Shown piece by piece: positions 35,203-40,489 of a stretch of 46,156 nucleotides of DNA; positions within the stretch are counted from its first letter, which is position 1; every line of letters begins with the position of its first letter. The stretch is from Promethearchaeia archaeon (GTDB lineage Archaea; Asgardarchaeota; Lokiarchaeia; Sigyniarchaeales; SOKP01), in assembly GCA_029856125.1 (NCBI GenBank), contig JAHQWJ010000036.1, forward strand, positions 1 to 46,156, written 5' to 3'. The position numbers were made by a program, and so were the translations under genes. The notes under the pieces are model-generated. The model saw only the letters and a program-made list of their open reading frames with translations, did not search any database and was not told where the DNA came from.

Positions 35203-36126
35203 ATGTCATACCGAAACCGCTTACGATCAGCGAAAGATGATTCAAACGAGGAAAGCCCAGTTGGAGAATGCTGTGAAGATCCTTCAATCGAATCAAAAGA
35301 TGGCGATGTTGTCTGTTTAAACTGCGGAATGATCCAAAGCAGAAATATGGTCGGAAATGAAAGGAGAGCGTACACCGTAGAAGAAGTAAACAAACGAAGA
35401 CGAACCGAACCTCGATGGCGAGAATTTGGACCCAGAACCATGTTACCAAATTCCAAAATTGATTCAAAAGGTCGATTAATTAACGCAAAAGGAAAGACTC
35501 TGTTCTCTCGACTCTCTAAAATTCAGAATTCCTTAATTTCCAGTATAGAAAGAAATTTTTGGGAAGCAAAACCTAAATTAAAGATGCTTACATCCAAGCT
35601 AAATATTCCAGAATATATTAAAGAAACTGCCTGGAAAATTTATAGCGTTGTAGCTCGGAAAAAATTAACTATGGGTAGATCCATCGATGGATTTATTGCG
35701 GCATCACTCTATGCAGCAATCAGAGTTCACGAGTTTCCACGTTTACTGGAAGAAGTGTGCGATGCATCCATGACTCCACGAAGAACTGTCCACAGAAGCT
35801 TAGGAATGATTGTAAAAGAAGTGCTCCCCGAGTTAAATTTACGATATAAACCGATTACTGCAGAACAGCTAGTCTTTAGATTCGGCAACGATTTAGGTTT
35901 ACCGATGGAAGTCCAAAAGAAAGCAATCGACATGCTCTCAGTAGCTTCAAAAAACGGTTTATTAAGAACAGGAAAAGACCCAAAAGGTTTAGCGGCAAGT
36001 GTAATTTATATGGCGGCCAAATCAAGTAACTGCCGGAAGACTCAAGCCGAAGTCTCATCGGTCGCCAAAGTTACAGAAGTCACTTTACGAAGCCGTTCCA
36101 AACAGATTAGACTGAAGCTGGTCTAA
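35203..36126 (+). CDS. tfb: Transcription initiation factor IIB
   Basis: Zn ribbon (CC..D...VCLNCG), two cyclin repeats, GRSI..AASLYAA, GKDPKGLAA, TQAEVS..VTEVTLR. Confidence 0.95.
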   Translation: MSYRNRLRSAKDDSNEESPVGECCEDPSIESKDGDVVCLNCGMIQSRNMVGNERRAYTVEEVNKRRRTEPRWREFGPRTMLPNSKIDSKGRLINAKGKTLFSRLSKIQNSLISSIERNFWEAKPKLKMLTSKLNIPEYIKETAWKIYSVVARKKLTMGRSIDGFIAASLYAAIRVHEFPRLLEEVCDASMTPRRTVHRSLGMIVKEVLPELNLRYKPITAEQLVFRFGNDLGLPMEVQKKAIDMLSVASKNGLLRTGKDPKGLAASVIYMAAKSSNCRKTQAEVSSVAKVTEVTLRSRSKQIRLKLV

Positions 36127-36469: not shown

Positions 36470-38200
36470 TTGAACATAAAGTATATTGCACGGAAATTTA
36501 AAGAATTTATTACAATCAAGAGCGTTAGTTATTCCTTATTTTTTTTAAATTTGTTTTGTATTATATCTGGTATTTTATATCTAGCCAGGTCTGAATATTT
36601 GCCACTTTGGGACATATTTGGGATAGTATTAACAATTACTCTTTTTGAAAATTTGCTGTTAATTTACCTTAATTTGGTGAAAGTAAATAAAAAGAGCAAA
36701 TTTGGATATAGACTCCATATATTCTGCTATATCTTTTTAGTCTTTATTATTTTGGGTATGTGGGGAATGATGCAAGGCAATTTATTAAGCTCTACTACAA
36801 TTTCTAACTCTTTTATGGGAGGATACGCATTGAACCATATATCCTACTTTGGAATTTTAACATTTGGAACTACTTTGGTTATGATTGATTTCCTAACAAG
36901 AAAGAATCCAAAGTTTTGGGGCAGAGAAACTAGAAGAGATGGGAGTAAATACATAAAAATTTTAAGATTTAAGGAAATAGTAAAGAAAATTATAATAATC
37001 ACAAGTTGGATCGGTTTATGCATTGGTGCGTTTTGTGCTTTCATAACACTTTTTGGTGTGTTTGAGTTTGTAACTACCCAAATTGCTTTTTTCTCCTCTC
37101 AATATGGAGTGTTTTTGTCGTTTATTTTTTTAGCGAACACTATCATTCTATTAAAGATAAAAAAAGGAAAATGGAACAGAAAAAAGTTTCGTAGAGTTTC
37201 GCTTACAGGGTTATTAATTTCAATTTCATTACTCACACCCTTTTTTGTAAGTAATATTAATGCAATAAGTGCTGAAGCCAATTTTACAGAAGCTTTTGGT
37301 CTAAATTGGCAATCAGAAATTCCTACAACAACGTATGATTACTTCTTACAAACTTCGTTTTCGACAGCTGGATATTATTTAGGAGTTCCTCCTAAAGATT
37401 GTATTGTTATAGAAAATCTCTTATTTTATGATAACGAAAGTATCAAATTGTATTTTGATGTATATATGCCATTGAAAAGAGGTGAAGGCCTTCCAGGGCA
37501 GAATTCAACACTTATTCGAATTCATGGTGGTGGTTGGGTGTCGGGTGATAAGGGTGGATCGAACATGGCACAAATGAATAAATATTTTGCAGCTCAAGGA
37601 TATATCGTATTTGACATTCAATACGGATTATACGATTCGCCCATAGCTGCTATGGACCTTAGTACGCCTAGCTACAATAAAGGAGATTTTAATATCGATG
37701 ATATGGTTAGGCACATCGGTGAATTCACGAAGTATTTAACTGAAAATGCGCATCTATTTGGCGCTAATGTGGATTCCGTCTTTATTAGTGGTAGTTCATC
37801 TGGAGGACATCTTGCTAGTGCAGTAGGATTAGCTTTAACAAGTGGAAACTATTCAAATCTTTTTAGTCAGAATATTACAATAAAAGGAATAATCCCATTC
37901 TATCCTTCAAACGGTCAGATGGTCTATTTTGGAATAGATGGGAGGGAAGAATTCACAAATCCTGAAAAATTAATTGGATCTGAAAGCCCGCCTTGTTTAA
38001 TTTTTCAAGGTACGCACGATGTCCTAACTTATTTTGGTATTAGTCGAAATTTCAGGGCTACCTATCTAGCTAAGGGAAATGTTAACTGTGCCATTATATG
38101 GATGCTTTTAGGAGGACACACGAGCGATTTTTATTTTTCTGGTCATTATAATCAAATATTTTTGTATTATATGGAGCGTTTTATGTATCTCCATCAATAA
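36470..38200 (+). CDS. Multi-TM membrane-anchored esterase/lipase (HSL-like alpha/beta hydrolase)
   Basis: About 7 N-terminal TMs; HGGGW oxyanion motif, GSSSGGH nucleophile, QGTHD, GGH. Confidence 0.88.
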   Translation: MNIKYIARKFKEFITIKSVSYSLFFLNLFCIISGILYLARSEYLPLWDIFGIVLTITLFENLLLIYLNLVKVNKKSKFGYRLHIFCYIFLVFIILGMWGMMQGNLLSSTTISNSFMGGYALNHISYFGILTFGTTLVMIDFLTRKNPKFWGRETRRDGSKYIKILRFKEIVKKIIIITSWIGLCIGAFCAFITLFGVFEFVTTQIAFFSSQYGVFLSFIFLANTIILLKIKKGKWNRKKFRRVSLTGLLISISLLTPFFVSNINAISAEANFTEAFGLNWQSEIPTTTYDYFLQTSFSTAGYYLGVPPKDCIVIENLLFYDNESIKLYFDVYMPLKRGEGLPGQNSTLIRIHGGGWVSGDKGGSNMAQMNKYFAAQGYIVFDIQYGLYDSPIAAMDLSTPSYNKGDFNIDDMVRHIGEFTKYLTENAHLFGANVDSVFISGSSSGGHLASAVGLALTSGNYSNLFSQNITIKGIIPFYPSNGQMVYFGIDGREEFTNPEKLIGSESPPCLIFQGTHDVLTYFGISRNFRATYLAKGNVNCAIIWMLLGGHTSDFYFSGHYNQIFLYYMERFMYLHQ

Positions 38201-38376
38201 TATCTTTATTTTTTTACAATCTGGTTTATTCGTTAGAAGTATTGATTTAACAGAGCATCCTCTTAATTTTCGGTTTTGTATCTTATGTAGGTGGATTTGG
38301 CACATATTTTTATATAGAAGCTAATAATAATAGAGATGGCACGTACAATTTTATTAAATTCAATATCATGAAGTGA

Positions 38377-39594
38377 ATGAATATGGAGGATCTTACAATT
38401 CTAGTAAATATACTCGTTATTATTATTGGATATTTCATTGGTTCAATAAACCCTGCTTATATTTTTGGTAGATTCAAAAATTTTGACATAAGAGATAAAG
38501 GAGATGGTATAGCCGGGACAGTAAACACTTACCATAATTTAGGCGTTAAATACGCAATACCTACAGGTATGTTTGATTTTTTCAAAGGGATATTAGTAAT
38601 ATATTTAGCATTAATTTTAGGCGCGGATTTTGTTTTTGCGCAAATAAGTGGTCTTGCCGCTATTGTGGGGCACATATTTCCTTTTTACATCAAATTCCGT
38701 GGAGGTCAGGGTATGGCCTGTACATCGGGAATCTTGCTTGCTTATTTACTGAATTATCTCCTTACTGGGCCCCAAATGCTTTTTTTTATCTTATTTTATC
38801 TTATCTTTGTCATTGCGATTTTCGTTTATATTACGAGGACAGGGATTATTGTTGTTATATTTGTTCTGCCTTTAATTGGATACGCTGCTTTCATTTATTA
38901 TCCTACAAATCCATATAATCTTTTCTTTTGGATTGTGATCGCTTATGATGCTTCTATATCCTTCTACGATATGCTAAAGGGGAAAGTTATAAAAATTGAA
39001 GACGAAAATTTTAACTCTCACTGGTGGCGGGTAGCTACTAGGCCGTTTGCTTTACTTTTCATTATTTTTTACATAATCTACACCCAAACAGTCGCTCTAA
39101 TGATCATAGGCATTGTTGCGATAATTTTTATTGCTCTTGATATTACCAGATTTCTCCACAAACAAACAAACGAACTGTTTACTGTAAGGATTAAGTCAAT
39201 TTTTAGAAAAAATGAAGTTAAAAAGTTTTCGTCTATGACGATATTCTTGGTAGCTACGTTCATTTCAATTCTATTATTTGAAAAGGCAATCGCTATCACT
39301 GCGTTAGTTTTTCTAATTTTTGGTGATATTTTCAGTAAAATATTCGGGCTAGCATTTGGCAGACATAAAATATTTCATAAAACCCTTGAGGGTACATTAG
39401 CATATTTCGGATGCATGTTTATTTGTGGATACATCCTCTATACTACTCTAAATATTCCATTATTTATCCTCATAATAGGAGGAATCAGCGCACCGTTGGT
39501 AGAGTTATTTTCATTTCAGTTAAACGATAATTTTACAGTTTCTTTAATTAGTGGTTCTATTATGACTGTAGCACGAGTATTCGGAGTTTTATAG
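38377..39594 (+). CDS. Fusion of PlsY-like glycerol-3-phosphate acyltransferase and CTP-dependent dolichol/phytol/DAG-kinase-like domain
   Basis: N-terminal GYFIGSINPAY, DIRDKGDGIAGTVN, DFFKG, GHIFPFYIKFRGGQG; C-terminal FGDIFSKIFG..FGRHK..KTLEGT, LVE....NDN. Confidence 0.85.
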   Translation: MNMEDLTILVNILVIIIGYFIGSINPAYIFGRFKNFDIRDKGDGIAGTVNTYHNLGVKYAIPTGMFDFFKGILVIYLALILGADFVFAQISGLAAIVGHIFPFYIKFRGGQGMACTSGILLAYLLNYLLTGPQMLFFILFYLIFVIAIFVYITRTGIIVVIFVLPLIGYAAFIYYPTNPYNLFFWIVIAYDASISFYDMLKGKVIKIEDENFNSHWWRVATRPFALLFIIFYIIYTQTVALMIIGIVAIIFIALDITRFLHKQTNELFTVRIKSIFRKNEVKKFSSMTIFLVATFISILLFEKAIAITALVFLIFGDIFSKIFGLAFGRHKIFHKTLEGTLAYFGCMFICGYILYTTLNIPLFILIIGGISAPLVELFSFQLNDNFTVSLISGSIMTVARVFGVL

Positions 39595-39700: not shown

Positions 39701-40489
39701 ATGTCTTATATTGAGAAAAAATATAATACCAAAATTGCTGAAGTTTTTGATGATCTTTCTGCAATAGAGCAGGATATTCTTCGACTTTTTACCAATAAAT
39801 CAATCGAATTCTCAGATAAAATAGCAAAGCTATGCGCTCTCTGTACGAAAAATGTGAACCTTATTTTAAAGAAATTTTATCCAGAAATCAAACAAATTGA
39901 CGATAAGTTAAAAATTAAGTCGAGGTTGAAATTTTACTACGATTTGATTGACAAGTTGACTCATTATATAAGATGTGTGGAAGAGTTTCAAAAATTAGAC
40001 GATCAATATTACGATACTATTATAGAATTCATCGAGGAGAAAGAAGATTTAATATCAGGTAAATACACAGAAATAAGTACTCACGAGTTAACTGTCTTTT
40101 ACGATAAAAAAACGCGTGAAGATTTAGAACGAGTTCTGATAGAGAAAATAGAATCTAGGAGCAAACAATTTTTTACTTTCGGCTCATTAGAAGCAGAACT
40201 TAAAAAGATCGCCCGAATTGTGGGTGCGGACTCGATTTCGATAATTGATAACGAAGAAATGTTAAAAAGGTCTGAGTTTATCAACAATCCCAGAGCAATT
40301 ATTCATTATTCAGTTTATTCTACGGATGAAGAATTATTGAAAAAGATTGGGAGAGAATTAAAAGGATATCTCGTTTCCAAGGGATACGAAGCGATTATTC
40401 TCCTTCTTGAGATCTCTGATTATTCAACTGATCGCGATTATTTAACAGGCTCGGTTATTACTAATGCGAATTTAAATCCTGATAAGTAA
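39701..40489 (+). CDS. Hypothetical protein
   Basis: 262-aa ORF, helical N-terminus, alpha/beta C-terminus; no recognised motif. Confidence 0.7.
   Translation: MSYIEKKYNTKIAEVFDDLSAIEQDILRLFTNKSIEFSDKIAKLCALCTKNVNLILKKFYPEIKQIDDKLKIKSRLKFYYDLIDKLTHYIRCVEEFQKLDDQYYDTIIEFIEEKEDLISGKYTEISTHELTVFYDKKTREDLERVLIEKIESRSKQFFTFGSLEAELKKIARIVGADSISIIDNEEMLKRSEFINNPRAIIHYSVYSTDEELLKKIGRELKGYLVSKGYEAIILLLEISDYSTDRDYLTGSVITNANLNPDK

What the first reader, a model, noticed from the sequence alone, without database searches (positions are those of the whole stretch)
36470..39594. PlsY-like acyltransferase fused to a CTP-dependent lipid kinase beside a membrane esterase: candidate lipid salvage or hybrid-lipid system
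Seen: one ORF joins a PlsY-like domain to a dolichol/phytol/Dgk1-type kinase domain, downstream of a co-oriented multi-TM esterase with intact catalytic motifs. The PlsY motifs are altered: GDGIAGTVN for GSGNxGxTN, GGQG for GGKG, and no recognisable H..NI motif 3. Known: PlsY acylates G3P using acyl-phosphate in bacterial ester-lipid synthesis, whereas archaea make G1P ether lipids. Inference: the esterase frees lipid chains, the kinase activates them and the PlsY-like domain transfers them, possibly with a changed substrate. This bears on the archaeal-to-eukaryotic lipid transition.
Basis: partly seen in the sequence, partly recalled or inferred. Interest (0 to 1): 0.78.

Follow-up and report, generated by a model that had tools for sequence, protein, structure and literature searches.

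The report
PlsY-like domain fused to lipid kinase
The gene that databases call the bacterial lipid enzyme PlsY in this Loki-type Asgard archaeon is a two-domain membrane protein, an altered PlsY-like half joined to a CTP-type lipid-kinase half; it was acquired from bacteria, is patchily distributed, and is not functionally tied to the neighbouring esterase.

Summary
ORF 38377-39594 (405 aa) joins a PlsY-fold domain to a DolK/DGK1/VTE5-type CTP_transf_1-superfamily domain. ORF 36470-38200 is a 7-TM esterase with an intact HGG/Ser/Asp/His set.

The system-level reading is not supported. The esterase is adjacent only in the closest relatives, is never found beside 30 bacterial fusions, often lies on another contig, and probably faces outward.

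The fusion is a wide family, with 262 representative clusters at E<=1e-30. In 12 of 16 bacterial genomes it sits beside a canonical PlsY. Among 251 sampled Asgard genomes it occurs only in the window's own family, patchily. Archaeal copies form one clade nested among bacterial ones.

The acyl-phosphate pocket is kept (His92, GGxG, Asn42). The glycerol-phosphate clamp is not (Lys104 is never Lys, mostly Gln; Ser35, Arg45 and Asn180 are not conserved). The genome has no PlsX or FakB.

My best reading is a self-contained accessory lipid-salvage enzyme: the kinase half makes a lipid phosphate, possibly acyl phosphate, for the PlsY-like half. This is inferred, not shown.

The scan has found this fusion before on other genomes, with the same conclusion. 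Other Asgard families carry fully canonical stand-alone PlsY.

The parts
38377..39594 (+). Fusion gene (405 aa, P0002): PlsY-like domain plus DolK/DGK1-type lipid-kinase-like domain
   Evidence: ORF. Full-length homologues of about 400 aa in 79 of 79 fetched loci. AF2 pLDDT 86.4.
38377..38979 (+). PlsY-like domain (residues 1-201, 7 TM helices). H99, G109, G110, G112 and N50 are kept. Q111 replaces Lys104, D43 replaces Ser35, H53 replaces Arg45, and there is no HxxN motif 3.
   Evidence: PF02660 E 8.7e-30. TIGR00023 scores 89.8 bits, below the 137.2 cut-off. Foldseek 5xj6 prob 1.0. Residue tallies. Residue roles from PMC5700162.
39022..39591 (+). CTP_transf_1-superfamily, DolK/DGK1/VTE5-type kinase-like domain (residues 216-405). 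Invariant: R218, R222, P223, D255, E280, D317 (GD), K335, G339 (KTLEG), E376, D384-N385.
   Evidence: A2 conservation. hhalign 97.5% to an own-genome protein that passes PF01148. 4q2e Z 9.9 and 5guf Z 7.2. Source names 'dolichol kinase' and 'diacylglycerol/polyprenol kinase family'.
38201..38376 (+). Intergenic gap: oligo-T run at 38209-38215 just after the esterase stop, and a TATA-like TTTTTATATA at 38307-38316, about 60 nt before the ATG. It probably separates two transcription units.
Evidence: Direct reading of the sequence.
36470..38200 (+). Membrane-anchored HSL/BD-FAE-type carboxylesterase (576 aa, P0001): 7 TM segments (residues 1-262) plus an alpha/beta-hydrolase domain (263-576). It is a syntenic neighbour, not shown to be a functional partner.
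   Evidence: Pfam PF20434 E 2.4e-19 and PF07859. Invariant HGG, GxSxG, D517 and H550. K+R counts per loop are 4/5/12/9 on one face and 1/0/0 on the other, which puts the C-terminal domain outside.
35203..36126 (+). Transcription factor B (TFB) gene, part of the conserved syntenic block. In many relatives it lies between the esterase and the fusion.
   Evidence: PF00382 E 4.8e-35. 85-97% identical copies beside the fusion in 32 loci.
39701..40489 (+). 262-aa protein with no family match (P0004), the conserved downstream neighbour in archaeal loci only
   Evidence: No Pfam hit. tblastn hits downstream of the fusion in 38 archaeal loci and no bacterial locus.

Best explanation
What it is (well supported). 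This is a single 405-aa integral membrane protein with two enzyme-like halves.
- The N-terminal half has the complete 7-TM PlsY fold. It keeps the residues that hold the phosphate and carbonyl of acyl phosphate: His92, the GGxG loop and Asn42. It has lost the conserved clamp that PlsY uses to hold the phosphate of glycerol-3-phosphate.
- The C-terminal half is a strictly conserved member of the CTP-dependent lipid-kinase branch (dolichol kinase, phytol kinase, Dgk1) of the CdsA/CarS superfamily.

The fusion is a distinct paralogous family. It is common in sediment bacteria, where it usually coexists with a canonical PlsX/PlsY pair. One Lokiarchaeial family acquired it, most simply by one transfer from bacteria, and it then duplicated there (1-4 copies per genome). 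It is accessory, not core.

How it most likely works (inferred). The two halves act in sequence at the cytoplasmic face. The kinase half uses CTP to phosphorylate a membrane lipid. The favoured substrate is a free fatty acid, giving acyl phosphate, by analogy with FakAB. The PlsY-like half binds that lipid phosphate in its retained phosphate hole and transfers the lipid group to an acceptor that is probably not bound the way PlsY binds G3P. The result would be a self-contained salvage or remodelling route that needs neither PlsX nor FakAB. The neighbouring esterase is not part of the unit.
For: - Identity: PlsY fold; kinase-type domain.
- Functional coupling: fusion in all 79 of 79 loci. Of the 150 best 50%-identity cluster representatives, 71 have the order PlsY then kinase and one (P0271) has the reverse order. 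No recurring partner gene was seen among 72 bacterial neighbour ORFs.
- Acyl-P site kept: H92, G102, G103 and G39 are invariant, and G105 (79/80) and N42 (79/80) nearly so, in the 80 tallied fusions.
- Clamp lost: Lys104 is Q in 68/80 and never K. Ser35 is T in 54/80. Arg45 is R 25, K 23, H 19. No conserved Asn180 (residue roles from PMC5700162).
- Paralogue status: a clade with SH-aLRT 99 on a branch of 1.83 from canonical PlsY. Canonical PlsY is also present in 12/16 and PlsX in 11/16 fusion-bearing bacterial genomes.
- No other acyl-P source: PlsX and DegV/FakB were not found in the 99%-complete own genome, in G005, or in the genomes holding the Berkelbacteria (G003), Saccharibacteria (G411), CSMAG_1200 (G407) and Hydrothermota (G406) fusions.
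- Analogy: in one Aminicenantaceae genome, a stand-alone PlsY-like gene that falls inside the fusion clade lies 83 bp downstream of a FakB-FakA fusion.
- Accessory and transferred: 33/251 sampled Asgard genomes, all in family f1. Within that family 24/61, with no match in several 98-100%-complete genomes, two of them in the window's own genus. Archaeal copies form one clade nested among bacterial ones.
Against: - No biochemical data exist for any member.
- Known members of the DolK/VTE5/Dgk1 family phosphorylate hydroxyl groups, not carboxylates, so a fatty-acid kinase would be a new activity.
- Position 45 is still Arg or Lys in 48/80 members, and Gln/Arg at position 104 could still contact a phosphate. 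Glycerol-phosphate is therefore not excluded as acceptor.
- In three small or incomplete bacterial genomes (G406, G407, G411), and in G409, the fusion is the only PlsY-family gene. This could mean it does perform the first acylation there.
- The Fak adjacency is a single locus.
- The tree is a quick search, rooted on long branches.
- I could not inspect the model coordinates for a tunnel between the two sites.
Confidence: 0.42

Rival explanations
1. The order of action is reversed. The PlsY-like half acylates a phosphate-free lipid or polyol (glycerol, monoacylglycerol, or an archaeal or bacterial lipid alcohol) using acyl phosphate from an unknown source. The Dgk1-like half then phosphorylates the product with CTP (for example DAG to phosphatidate).
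For: Loss of the phosphate clamp fits a phosphate-free acceptor. Yeast Dgk1, a member of the kinase family, is a CTP-dependent DAG kinase (PMC2459266). This reading keeps the kinase chemistry conventional, acting on a hydroxyl acceptor.
Against: It needs an acyl-phosphate source, and none (PlsX, FakB) was found in the own genome or in four of the small bacterial genomes.
Confidence: 0.2
2. The PlsY-like half is no longer an acyltransferase. It is a lipid-phosphate-binding or membrane-scaffold module that delivers substrate to, takes product from, or regulates the kinase half, which is the only catalyst (for example a polyprenol, dolichol or DAG kinase).
For: All four G3P-clamp residues and motif 3 are unconserved. 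The protein falls below the TIGR00023 equivalog cut-off. The kinase half is the more strictly conserved.
Against: His92, Asn42 and the GGxG loop are invariant or nearly so across Asgard and bacterial copies that are only about 38% identical overall. That degree of conservation is hard to explain without catalysis or specific ligand binding. The genome already has three stand-alone DolK-like paralogues.
Confidence: 0.15
3. It is a true glycerol-phosphate (G3P or G1P) acyltransferase that starts ester-lipid synthesis in the archaeon, fused to an unrelated housekeeping dolichol kinase.
For: Databases name it PlsY. It matches PF02660. A tandem PlsC-like gene is present in the genome. Bacterial PlsY accepts both glycerol-phosphate stereoisomers (PMC13400652). 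In a few small bacterial genomes it is the only PlsY-family gene.
Against: Clamp residues whose mutation costs more than 90% of activity in Aquifex PlsY are replaced. It forms a separate clade from canonical PlsY. It coexists with canonical PlsY in 12/16 bacterial genomes. No acyl-P source was found. The gene was not found in several 98-100%-complete genomes of the family, two of them same-genus. Other Asgard families keep fully canonical stand-alone PlsY, so canonical motifs are maintained where that function exists.
Confidence: 0.13
4. One reading: the upstream esterase frees acyl chains, the kinase activates them and the PlsY-like domain re-attaches them, all as one functional unit.
For: The two genes are co-oriented and adjacent here and in about 6 closest relatives. 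An outward-facing lipase could in principle supply fatty acids for uptake.
Against: The linkage is not conserved. Terminator-like and promoter-like signals lie between the genes. The essential TFB gene sits inside the same syntenic block in most relatives. The esterase domain is predicted to be extracytoplasmic, whereas the PlsY active site faces the cytoplasm (PMC5700162).
Confidence: 0.06

Closest known systems
Bacterial PlsY, acyl-phosphate:sn-glycerol-3-phosphate acyltransferase (PF02660, TIGR00023; Aquifex aeolicus 5XJ5-5XJ9)
   Same: The same 7-TM fold. The same acyl-phosphate 'phosphate hole' residues: His92, Gly102, Gly103, Gly105, Asn42, Gly39.
   Different: The G3P phosphate clamp (Ser35, Arg45, Lys104, Asn180) and the His177 motif are not conserved. 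It scores below the TIGR00023 equivalog cut-off. It forms a separate clade on a long branch. It is fused to a second enzyme domain. It coexists with canonical PlsY in most bacteria that carry it. No PlsX was found in the archaeal genomes checked.
CTP-dependent lipid kinases of the CTP_transf_1 superfamily: dolichol kinase Sec59/DOLK, phytol kinase VTE5, yeast DAG kinase Dgk1 (COG0170)
   Same: A CdsA/CarS-like fold. The conserved GD...K(T/S)xEG...DN pattern. Profile similarity to PF01148-passing paralogues. Stand-alone relatives are named dolichol or diacylglycerol/polyprenol kinase.
   Different: It does not reach PF01148 on its own. Its N-terminal motif is WWRxxxRP. It is covalently joined to a PlsY-like domain. 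The substrate is unknown and may be a carboxylate.
FakA/FakB fatty-acid kinase plus PlsY route for incorporating exogenous fatty acids (Gram-positive bacteria)
   Same: The proposed logic is the same: a kinase makes acyl phosphate from a free fatty acid and a PlsY-type enzyme uses it. One stand-alone PlsY-like gene of the fusion clade lies directly downstream of a FakB-FakA fusion.
   Different: The kinase module is unrelated to FakA (a membrane, CTP-type fold instead of a soluble Dak2, ATP-dependent one). The acceptor site differs.
Hormone-sensitive-lipase-type (family IV) / BD-FAE carboxylesterases (for the neighbouring gene)
   Same: The HGG oxyanion motif, the GxSxG nucleophile elbow, and the Asp and His of the triad.
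   Different: It has a 7-TM N-terminal anchor, and the catalytic domain is predicted to lie outside the cell. The substrate is unknown.

Membership tests
PlsY (acyl-phosphate:G3P acyltransferase) | Match to PF02660 above the gathering score | tested here: met
   104.4 bits against a cut-off of 24.1, residues 17-181
PlsY (acyl-phosphate:G3P acyltransferase) | NCBIfam equivalog TIGR00023 cut-off (functional equivalence) | tested here: not met
   89.8 bits against a cut-off of 137.2
PlsY (acyl-phosphate:G3P acyltransferase) | Seven-TM PlsY fold | tested here: met
   Foldseek 5xj5-5xj8: prob 1.0, TM (target) 0.63-0.65, 196 columns
PlsY (acyl-phosphate:G3P acyltransferase) | Acyl-phosphate site: His92, Gly102-Gly103-x-Gly105 loop, Asn42 and the Thr41 region | tested here: met
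   H, G and G are invariant in 80/80; G105 and N42 are each 79/80. The Thr is shifted by one position, to Thr48 in place of Ala40, in 77/80. Residue roles from PMC5700162.
PlsY (acyl-phosphate:G3P acyltransferase) | G3P phosphate clamp Ser35, Arg45, Lys104, Asn180 | tested here: not met
   Lys104 is Q 68, R 7, E 5 of 80 and never K. Ser35 is S in only 9/80. Arg45 is R in 25/80. There is no conserved Asn at motif 3.
PlsY (acyl-phosphate:G3P acyltransferase) | His177 / motif 3 (HxxNIxxL) | tested here: inconclusive
   Canonical copies show THRxNI. Fusions show Y or H at the nearest column, and the alignment there shifts by 1-2 columns between runs.
PlsY (acyl-phosphate:G3P acyltransferase) | An acyl-phosphate supplier (PlsX or FakAB) in the same genome | tested here: not met
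   No PF02504 or PF02645 match in the 99%-complete own genome
PlsY (acyl-phosphate:G3P acyltransferase) | Groups with canonical PlsY in a tree | tested here: not met
   The fusion-type clade has SH-aLRT 99 and is separated by a branch of 1.83 from 4 canonical PlsY sequences. This was a quick search.
CTP-dependent lipid kinases (DolK/VTE5/Dgk1; CTP_transf_1 superfamily) | Match to PF01148 | tested here: inconclusive
   No direct hit at E<=10. Stand-alone relatives score E 6e-4 to 0.1. hhalign gives 97.5% (E 7.6e-12) to an own-genome protein that passes PF01148.
CTP-dependent lipid kinases (DolK/VTE5/Dgk1; CTP_transf_1 superfamily) | CdsA/CarS-type membrane fold | tested here: met
   4q2e_A scores Z 9.9 with 174 residues aligned and is the only hit at Z>=8. 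5guf_A scores Z 7.2 over the C-terminal core. Z values under about 13 for helical bundles call for caution.
CTP-dependent lipid kinases (DolK/VTE5/Dgk1; CTP_transf_1 superfamily) | Conserved Asp of the GD motif (Dgk1 Asp177) and the kinase-branch K(T/S)xEG...DN pattern | tested here: met
   D317, K335, G339, E376, D384 and N385 are invariant in 35 Asgard and bacterial domains; E338 is >=90% conserved there and invariant in the 42 Asgard sequences. The essential Asp is from PMC2459266. The equivalence of positions is my own reading.
CTP-dependent lipid kinases (DolK/VTE5/Dgk1; CTP_transf_1 superfamily) | CTP-dependent phosphorylation of a lipid | not testable with these tools
   Needs an enzyme assay
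   15/34 archaeal loci, directly adjacent in about 6, and 0/30 bacterial loci. The genes lie on different contigs in same-genus genomes, and the esterase occurs in genera without the fusion.
HSL-type / BD-FAE carboxylesterase (neighbour gene) | HGG oxyanion motif, GxSxG, and the Asp and His of the triad | tested here: met
   PF20434 E 2.4e-19. H352-G353-G354, G441, S443, G445, D517 and H550 are invariant in 12 orthologues.

The most novel reading that the evidence does not exclude
The DolK/Dgk1-type half is a CTP-dependent fatty-acid (carboxylate) kinase that makes acyl phosphate in cis for the PlsY-like half. That half then acylates an acceptor other than canonically bound G3P. This would be a third, membrane-embedded route to acyl phosphate, independent of PlsX and FakAB. 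It would be used for lipid salvage by sediment bacteria, CPR bacteria and one Lokiarchaeial family.
Probability: 0.25. Interest if true: 0.75.

Novelty: new variant of a known kind. Interest (0 to 1): 0.5.

Why it matters
PlsY homologues in Loki-type Asgard archaea have been cited as a sign that the archaeal relatives of eukaryotes might make bacterial-type or chimeric ester lipids (PMC6737245, PMC6431249, PMC9385802, PMC13400652). A 2022 review says the function of these PlsY and PlsC homologues remains to be elucidated.

In this family the only PlsY-family gene found is the fusion. It is a bacterial-derived, accessory, patchily distributed paralogue with an altered acceptor site and an attached lipid kinase. 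It is therefore weak evidence for a G3P ester-lipid pathway.

The fusion family is nonetheless widespread and uncharacterised, in both domain orders. It may encode a new way to activate and transfer lipid chains. None of the papers I searched holds both 'PlsY' and 'dolichol kinase'.

Tried and rejected
- Direct Pfam and NCBIfam scans of the C-terminal half gave nothing at E<=10.
- A profile search of that half against PDB sequences gave nothing at E<=10.
- Foldseek on the isolated C-terminal model gave no hit at E<=0.001. CdsA 4q2g ranked 4-5 at E about 2. Only the VIA-align wide search separated CdsA from the background.
- hhalign of the kinase profile against the genome's CarS gave no match. 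The domain is therefore not a CarS.
- Bacterial neighbourhoods gave no functional clue. The recurring genes GAPDH, PGK, NAD(P)HX dehydratase and TsaE occur only in closely related Aminicenantes, and 121 different families were seen in 72 ORFs.
- I searched 121 genomes of the G002 phylum for further stand-alone PlsY-like genes next to Fak. No second example turned up, so that adjacency stays n=1. That search listed an unpublished genome, G029. No claim here rests on it.
- The protein-atlas look-up gave only sub-0.9 leads ('phosphatidate cytidylyltransferase family', PF01148 on 14% of members).
The contexts of the reversed-order fusion P0271 and of the 570-aa form P0211 could not be seen.
- I considered the MAG labels Hod-, Thor-, Odin- and Hermodarchaeota as evidence of a wide Asgard distribution, and rejected them. 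The adjacent TFB genes are 85-97% identical to the window's, and the taxon-aware genome search found the fusion only in the window's family.


Full report
**Observation.** The window (GC about 32%) carries four co-oriented genes on the + strand:
- a TFB gene (35203-36126);
- a 576-aa ORF (36470-38200);
- a 405-aa ORF (38377-39594);
- a 262-aa ORF with no family match (39701-40489).

The 405-aa protein P0002 matches PF02660 (PlsY) at residues 17-181 (E 8.7e-30). It also matches Aquifex PlsY 5xj5 (E 9e-14). It stays below the TIGR00023 equivalog cut-off, at 89.8 bits against 137.2. An AF2 model built on 42 homologues (pLDDT 86.4) has seven N-terminal TM helices. These match PlsY crystal structures with Foldseek probability 1.0.

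**The C-terminal half.** Residues about 200-405 have no direct Pfam, NCBIfam or PDB-sequence hit. I built a 35-sequence alignment of this half from Asgard and bacterial loci (A2).
- Its profile finds 5654 cluster representatives at E<=1e-3. Many are stand-alone proteins of about 190 aa at E about 1e-40.
- Their sources name these stand-alone proteins 'dolichol kinase' or 'diacylglycerol/polyprenol kinase family protein'. Some of them score weakly on PF01148.
- The profile matches an own-genome protein that passes PF01148, with hhalign probability 97.5% and E 7.6e-12. The GD...KTxEG...DDN blocks align. A second paralogue matches at 93.5%. The genome's CarS does not match.
- The isolated domain model (pLDDT 86.5) has CDP-DAG synthase 4q2e as its only structural hit at Z>=8 (Z 9.9, 174 residues). 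CarS 5guf scores Z 7.2.
- R218, R222, D255, E280, D317, K335, E376 and D384-N385 are invariant between archaeal and bacterial copies. An Asp that I read as equivalent to D317 is essential in yeast Dgk1 (PMC2459266).

**The PlsY-like half is not a canonical PlsY.** Li et al. (PMC5700162) assign the residue roles. Acyl phosphate is held by His92, Thr41/Ala40 and the backbone of the Lys104-Ala107 loop. G3P is held by a clamp of Ser35, Arg45, Lys104 and Asn180, plus Ser142 and His177. Mutation of clamp residues costs more than 90% of activity.

I tallied these positions in 50 archaeal and 30 bacterial fusion sequences (alignment).
- Kept: His92, Gly102, Gly103 and Gly39 are invariant, and Gly105 and Asn42 are each 79/80.
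- Lost or variable: Lys104 is Gln in 68, Arg in 7, Glu in 5, and never Lys. Ser35 is mostly Thr. Arg45 is R 25, K 23, H 19.
- No Asn or His is conserved in the motif-3 region.

Canonical PlsY genes from the same bacterial genomes show GSGNxGATNxxR, GGKG and THRxNI.

**Distribution and origin.**
- All 79 loci fetched from species-representative genomes encode the full fusion of about 400 aa. Thirty of them are bacterial: WOR-3, Aminicenantes, Calditrichota, KSB1, Hydrothermota, Berkelbacteria, Saccharibacteria and others.
- Among the 150 best cluster representatives, 71 have the order PlsY then kinase and one (P0271) has the reverse order. Fusion in both orders is a classic sign that the two domains work together.
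- Of 16 fusion-bearing bacterial genomes, 12 also have a canonical full-length PlsY, 11 have PlsX and 4 have DegV/FakB. In those 12 the fusion is an extra paralogue.
- In a tree of the PlsY-like domain rooted on canonical PlsY, fusion-type sequences form one clade (SH-aLRT 99, stem 1.83). The 50 archaeal sequences form one clade (86). That clade is nested among bacterial fusions, next to three uncultured bacteria (97), WOR-3 and Caldithrix. This was a quick search with long outgroup branches.
- A model of the full fusion found matches in 33 of 251 sampled Asgard genomes. All 33 are in the window's own GTDB family (32/54, against 0/197 elsewhere).
- Within that family it was found in 24/61 genomes and 7/13 genera, with 1-4 copies, often in tandem. 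It was not found in several 98-100%-complete genomes, two of them same-genus.
- The Hod-, Thor-, Odin- and Hermodarchaeota labels on some MAGs are unreliable. The adjacent TFB genes are 85-97% identical to the window's.

The simplest history is one bacteria-to-archaea transfer into this family, followed by duplication and loss.

**The esterase.** P0001 is an HSL/BD-FAE-type alpha/beta hydrolase. HGG352-354, G441-x-S443-x-G445, D517 and H550 are invariant in 12 orthologues. It has seven predicted TM segments. K+R counts are 4, 5, 12 and 9 on one face and 1, 0 and 0 on the other. This puts the catalytic domain, which carries five N-x-S/T sequons, outside the cell. PlsY's active site opens to the cytoplasmic side.

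The linkage to the fusion is local synteny, not a conserved system.
- The esterase is directly upstream only in the closest relatives, about 6 loci.
- In 11 others the TFB gene lies between the two genes.
- 19 of 34 archaeal loci with at least 4 kb of upstream sequence have no esterase.
- None of the 30 bacterial loci has one.
- Esterase homologues (including a shorter paralogue class) occur in 44/61 family genomes and 12/13 genera, including genera without the fusion. In several same-genus genomes it lies on a different contig from the fusion.
- The 176-bp gap holds an oligo-T run just after the esterase stop and a TTTTTATATA box about 60 nt before the fusion's ATG.

**Mechanism.** The following are shown:
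- two enzyme-like domains are always joined, and occur in both orders;
- the acyl-phosphate pocket is retained;
- the G3P clamp is altered;
- there is no conserved partner gene;
- no PlsX or FakB was found in the 99%-complete own genome, in a second archaeal genome, or in four small bacterial genomes.

In one Aminicenantaceae genome, a stand-alone PlsY-like gene that falls inside the fusion clade lies 83 bp downstream of a 772-aa FakB-FakA fusion. That protein is the known acyl-phosphate-forming fatty-acid kinase. This is a single example.

I infer that the kinase half makes a lipid phosphate with CTP, most attractively acyl phosphate from a free fatty acid. The PlsY-like half would then use it to acylate an acceptor that is not held like G3P. 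This would give a self-contained salvage or remodelling enzyme.

I give the full mechanism about 0.4. I give the identity, paralogue and accessory statements about 0.9. The rivals are:
- the reverse order of action (acylation of a neutral lipid, then Dgk1-like phosphorylation);
- a non-catalytic PlsY-like module;
- a true glycerol-phosphate acyltransferase. This last is not excluded, because Arg or Lys persists at position 45 in 48/80 and the fusion is the only PlsY-family gene found in four small or incomplete bacterial genomes.

**Relation to the literature and to earlier scan notes.** Papers on Asgard lipids list 'PlsY' in Loki- and Thorarchaeota without mentioning a fusion (PMC6737245, PMC6431249, PMC13400652). 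[quoted passage not shown] No searched paper holds both 'PlsY' and 'dolichol kinase'.

This scan has already met the same fusion in other genomes. Its follow-up agents reached the same core conclusion (e1-5701610, e1-5864491, e1-5572724). I re-derived that conclusion independently here.

This report adds:
- the negative result on the esterase;
- the restriction of the fusion to one Asgard family among those sampled;
- the reverse-order fusion;
- the 16-genome bacterial tally;
- the finding below on canonical PlsY.

Other Asgard families carry stand-alone PlsY with fully canonical motifs: GSGNMGATNVMR, GGKS and WRHKANxKRL. One family has it in 26/26 genomes and another has PF02660 matches of about 220-245 aa in 10/10. 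'Asgard PlsY' is therefore two different things.

**Verdict.** The domain interpretation is right. The esterase 'system' and the eukaryogenesis angle are not supported. The fusion family is an uncharacterised variant of known enzyme kinds, of moderate biochemical interest.

Noticed in passing
L113:1459-2166 (+), L114-L118; other families of the same phylum: Other Asgard families carry stand-alone PlsY of about 236-243 aa with fully canonical motifs (GSGNMGATNVMR, GGKS, WRHKANLKRL). One family has it in 26/26 genomes, usually in 2-3 copies. PF02660 also matches stand-alone-sized ORFs in another family (10/10 genomes; motifs not read). The canonical enzyme and the fusion type are thus separated by lineage within the phylum.
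   Followed up: partly
Genomes G315, G324, G357, G248, G363 (family f28): One Asgard family has 6-11 PF02660 genes per genome, all about 230-280 aa. This is an unusual expansion of the PlsY family.
   Followed up: no
G000:C47:3338-5083 (-) = L087:475-2220 (-): The own genome has a 582-aa protein with two tandem PlsC-type acyltransferase domains (PF01553 twice). Homologues are present in 53/61 genomes and 13/13 genera of the family, far more widely than the fusion.
   Followed up: partly
L096:4222-6540 (+) and L096:6623-7237 (+) (Aminicenantaceae genome G002, contig C9): A 772-aa FakB(DegV)-FakA(Dak2) fusion lies 83 bp upstream of a stand-alone 204-aa PlsY-like gene that falls inside the fusion-type clade. 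No second example was found in 121 genomes of that phylum.
   Followed up: partly
Protein P0271 (431 aa) and P0211 (570 aa): P0271 has the reverse domain order: kinase-like at residues 29-207 and PlsY-like at 226-390. P0211 carries an extra N-terminal region of about 160 aa with no family match before the PlsY-like domain.
   Followed up: partly
window:39701-40489 (+): A 262-aa acidic protein with no Pfam match lies downstream of the fusion in 38 archaeal loci (47-87% identity) and in no bacterial locus. Together with TFB it forms a conserved syntenic block around the fusion.
   Followed up: no
G000:C84:53405-54496 (+), C5:9-1037 (+), C12 (L084:1351-2490, -), C63 (L085:1297-2097, -): The own genome also has three stand-alone DolK-like CTP_transf_1 paralogues (343-380 aa) and a CarS (CDP-archaeol synthase). 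The fused kinase domain is therefore a fourth member of its family in this genome and not the only candidate dolichol kinase.
   Followed up: partly
Loci L007, L011, L015, L023, L026, L027, L035, L046, L051: MAGs labelled Hod-, Odin-, Thor- or Hermodarchaeota carry this fusion. In the six of them whose locus includes TFB, that gene is 86-90% identical to the window's. The taxon-aware search found the fusion only in the window's family. The submitted labels look unreliable.
   Followed up: partly
G000:C43:5083-6321 (-): A second, shorter paralogue of the esterase (about 450 aa, 39% identity over residues 170-576) is present in the own genome. This shorter class is common across the family.
   Followed up: no
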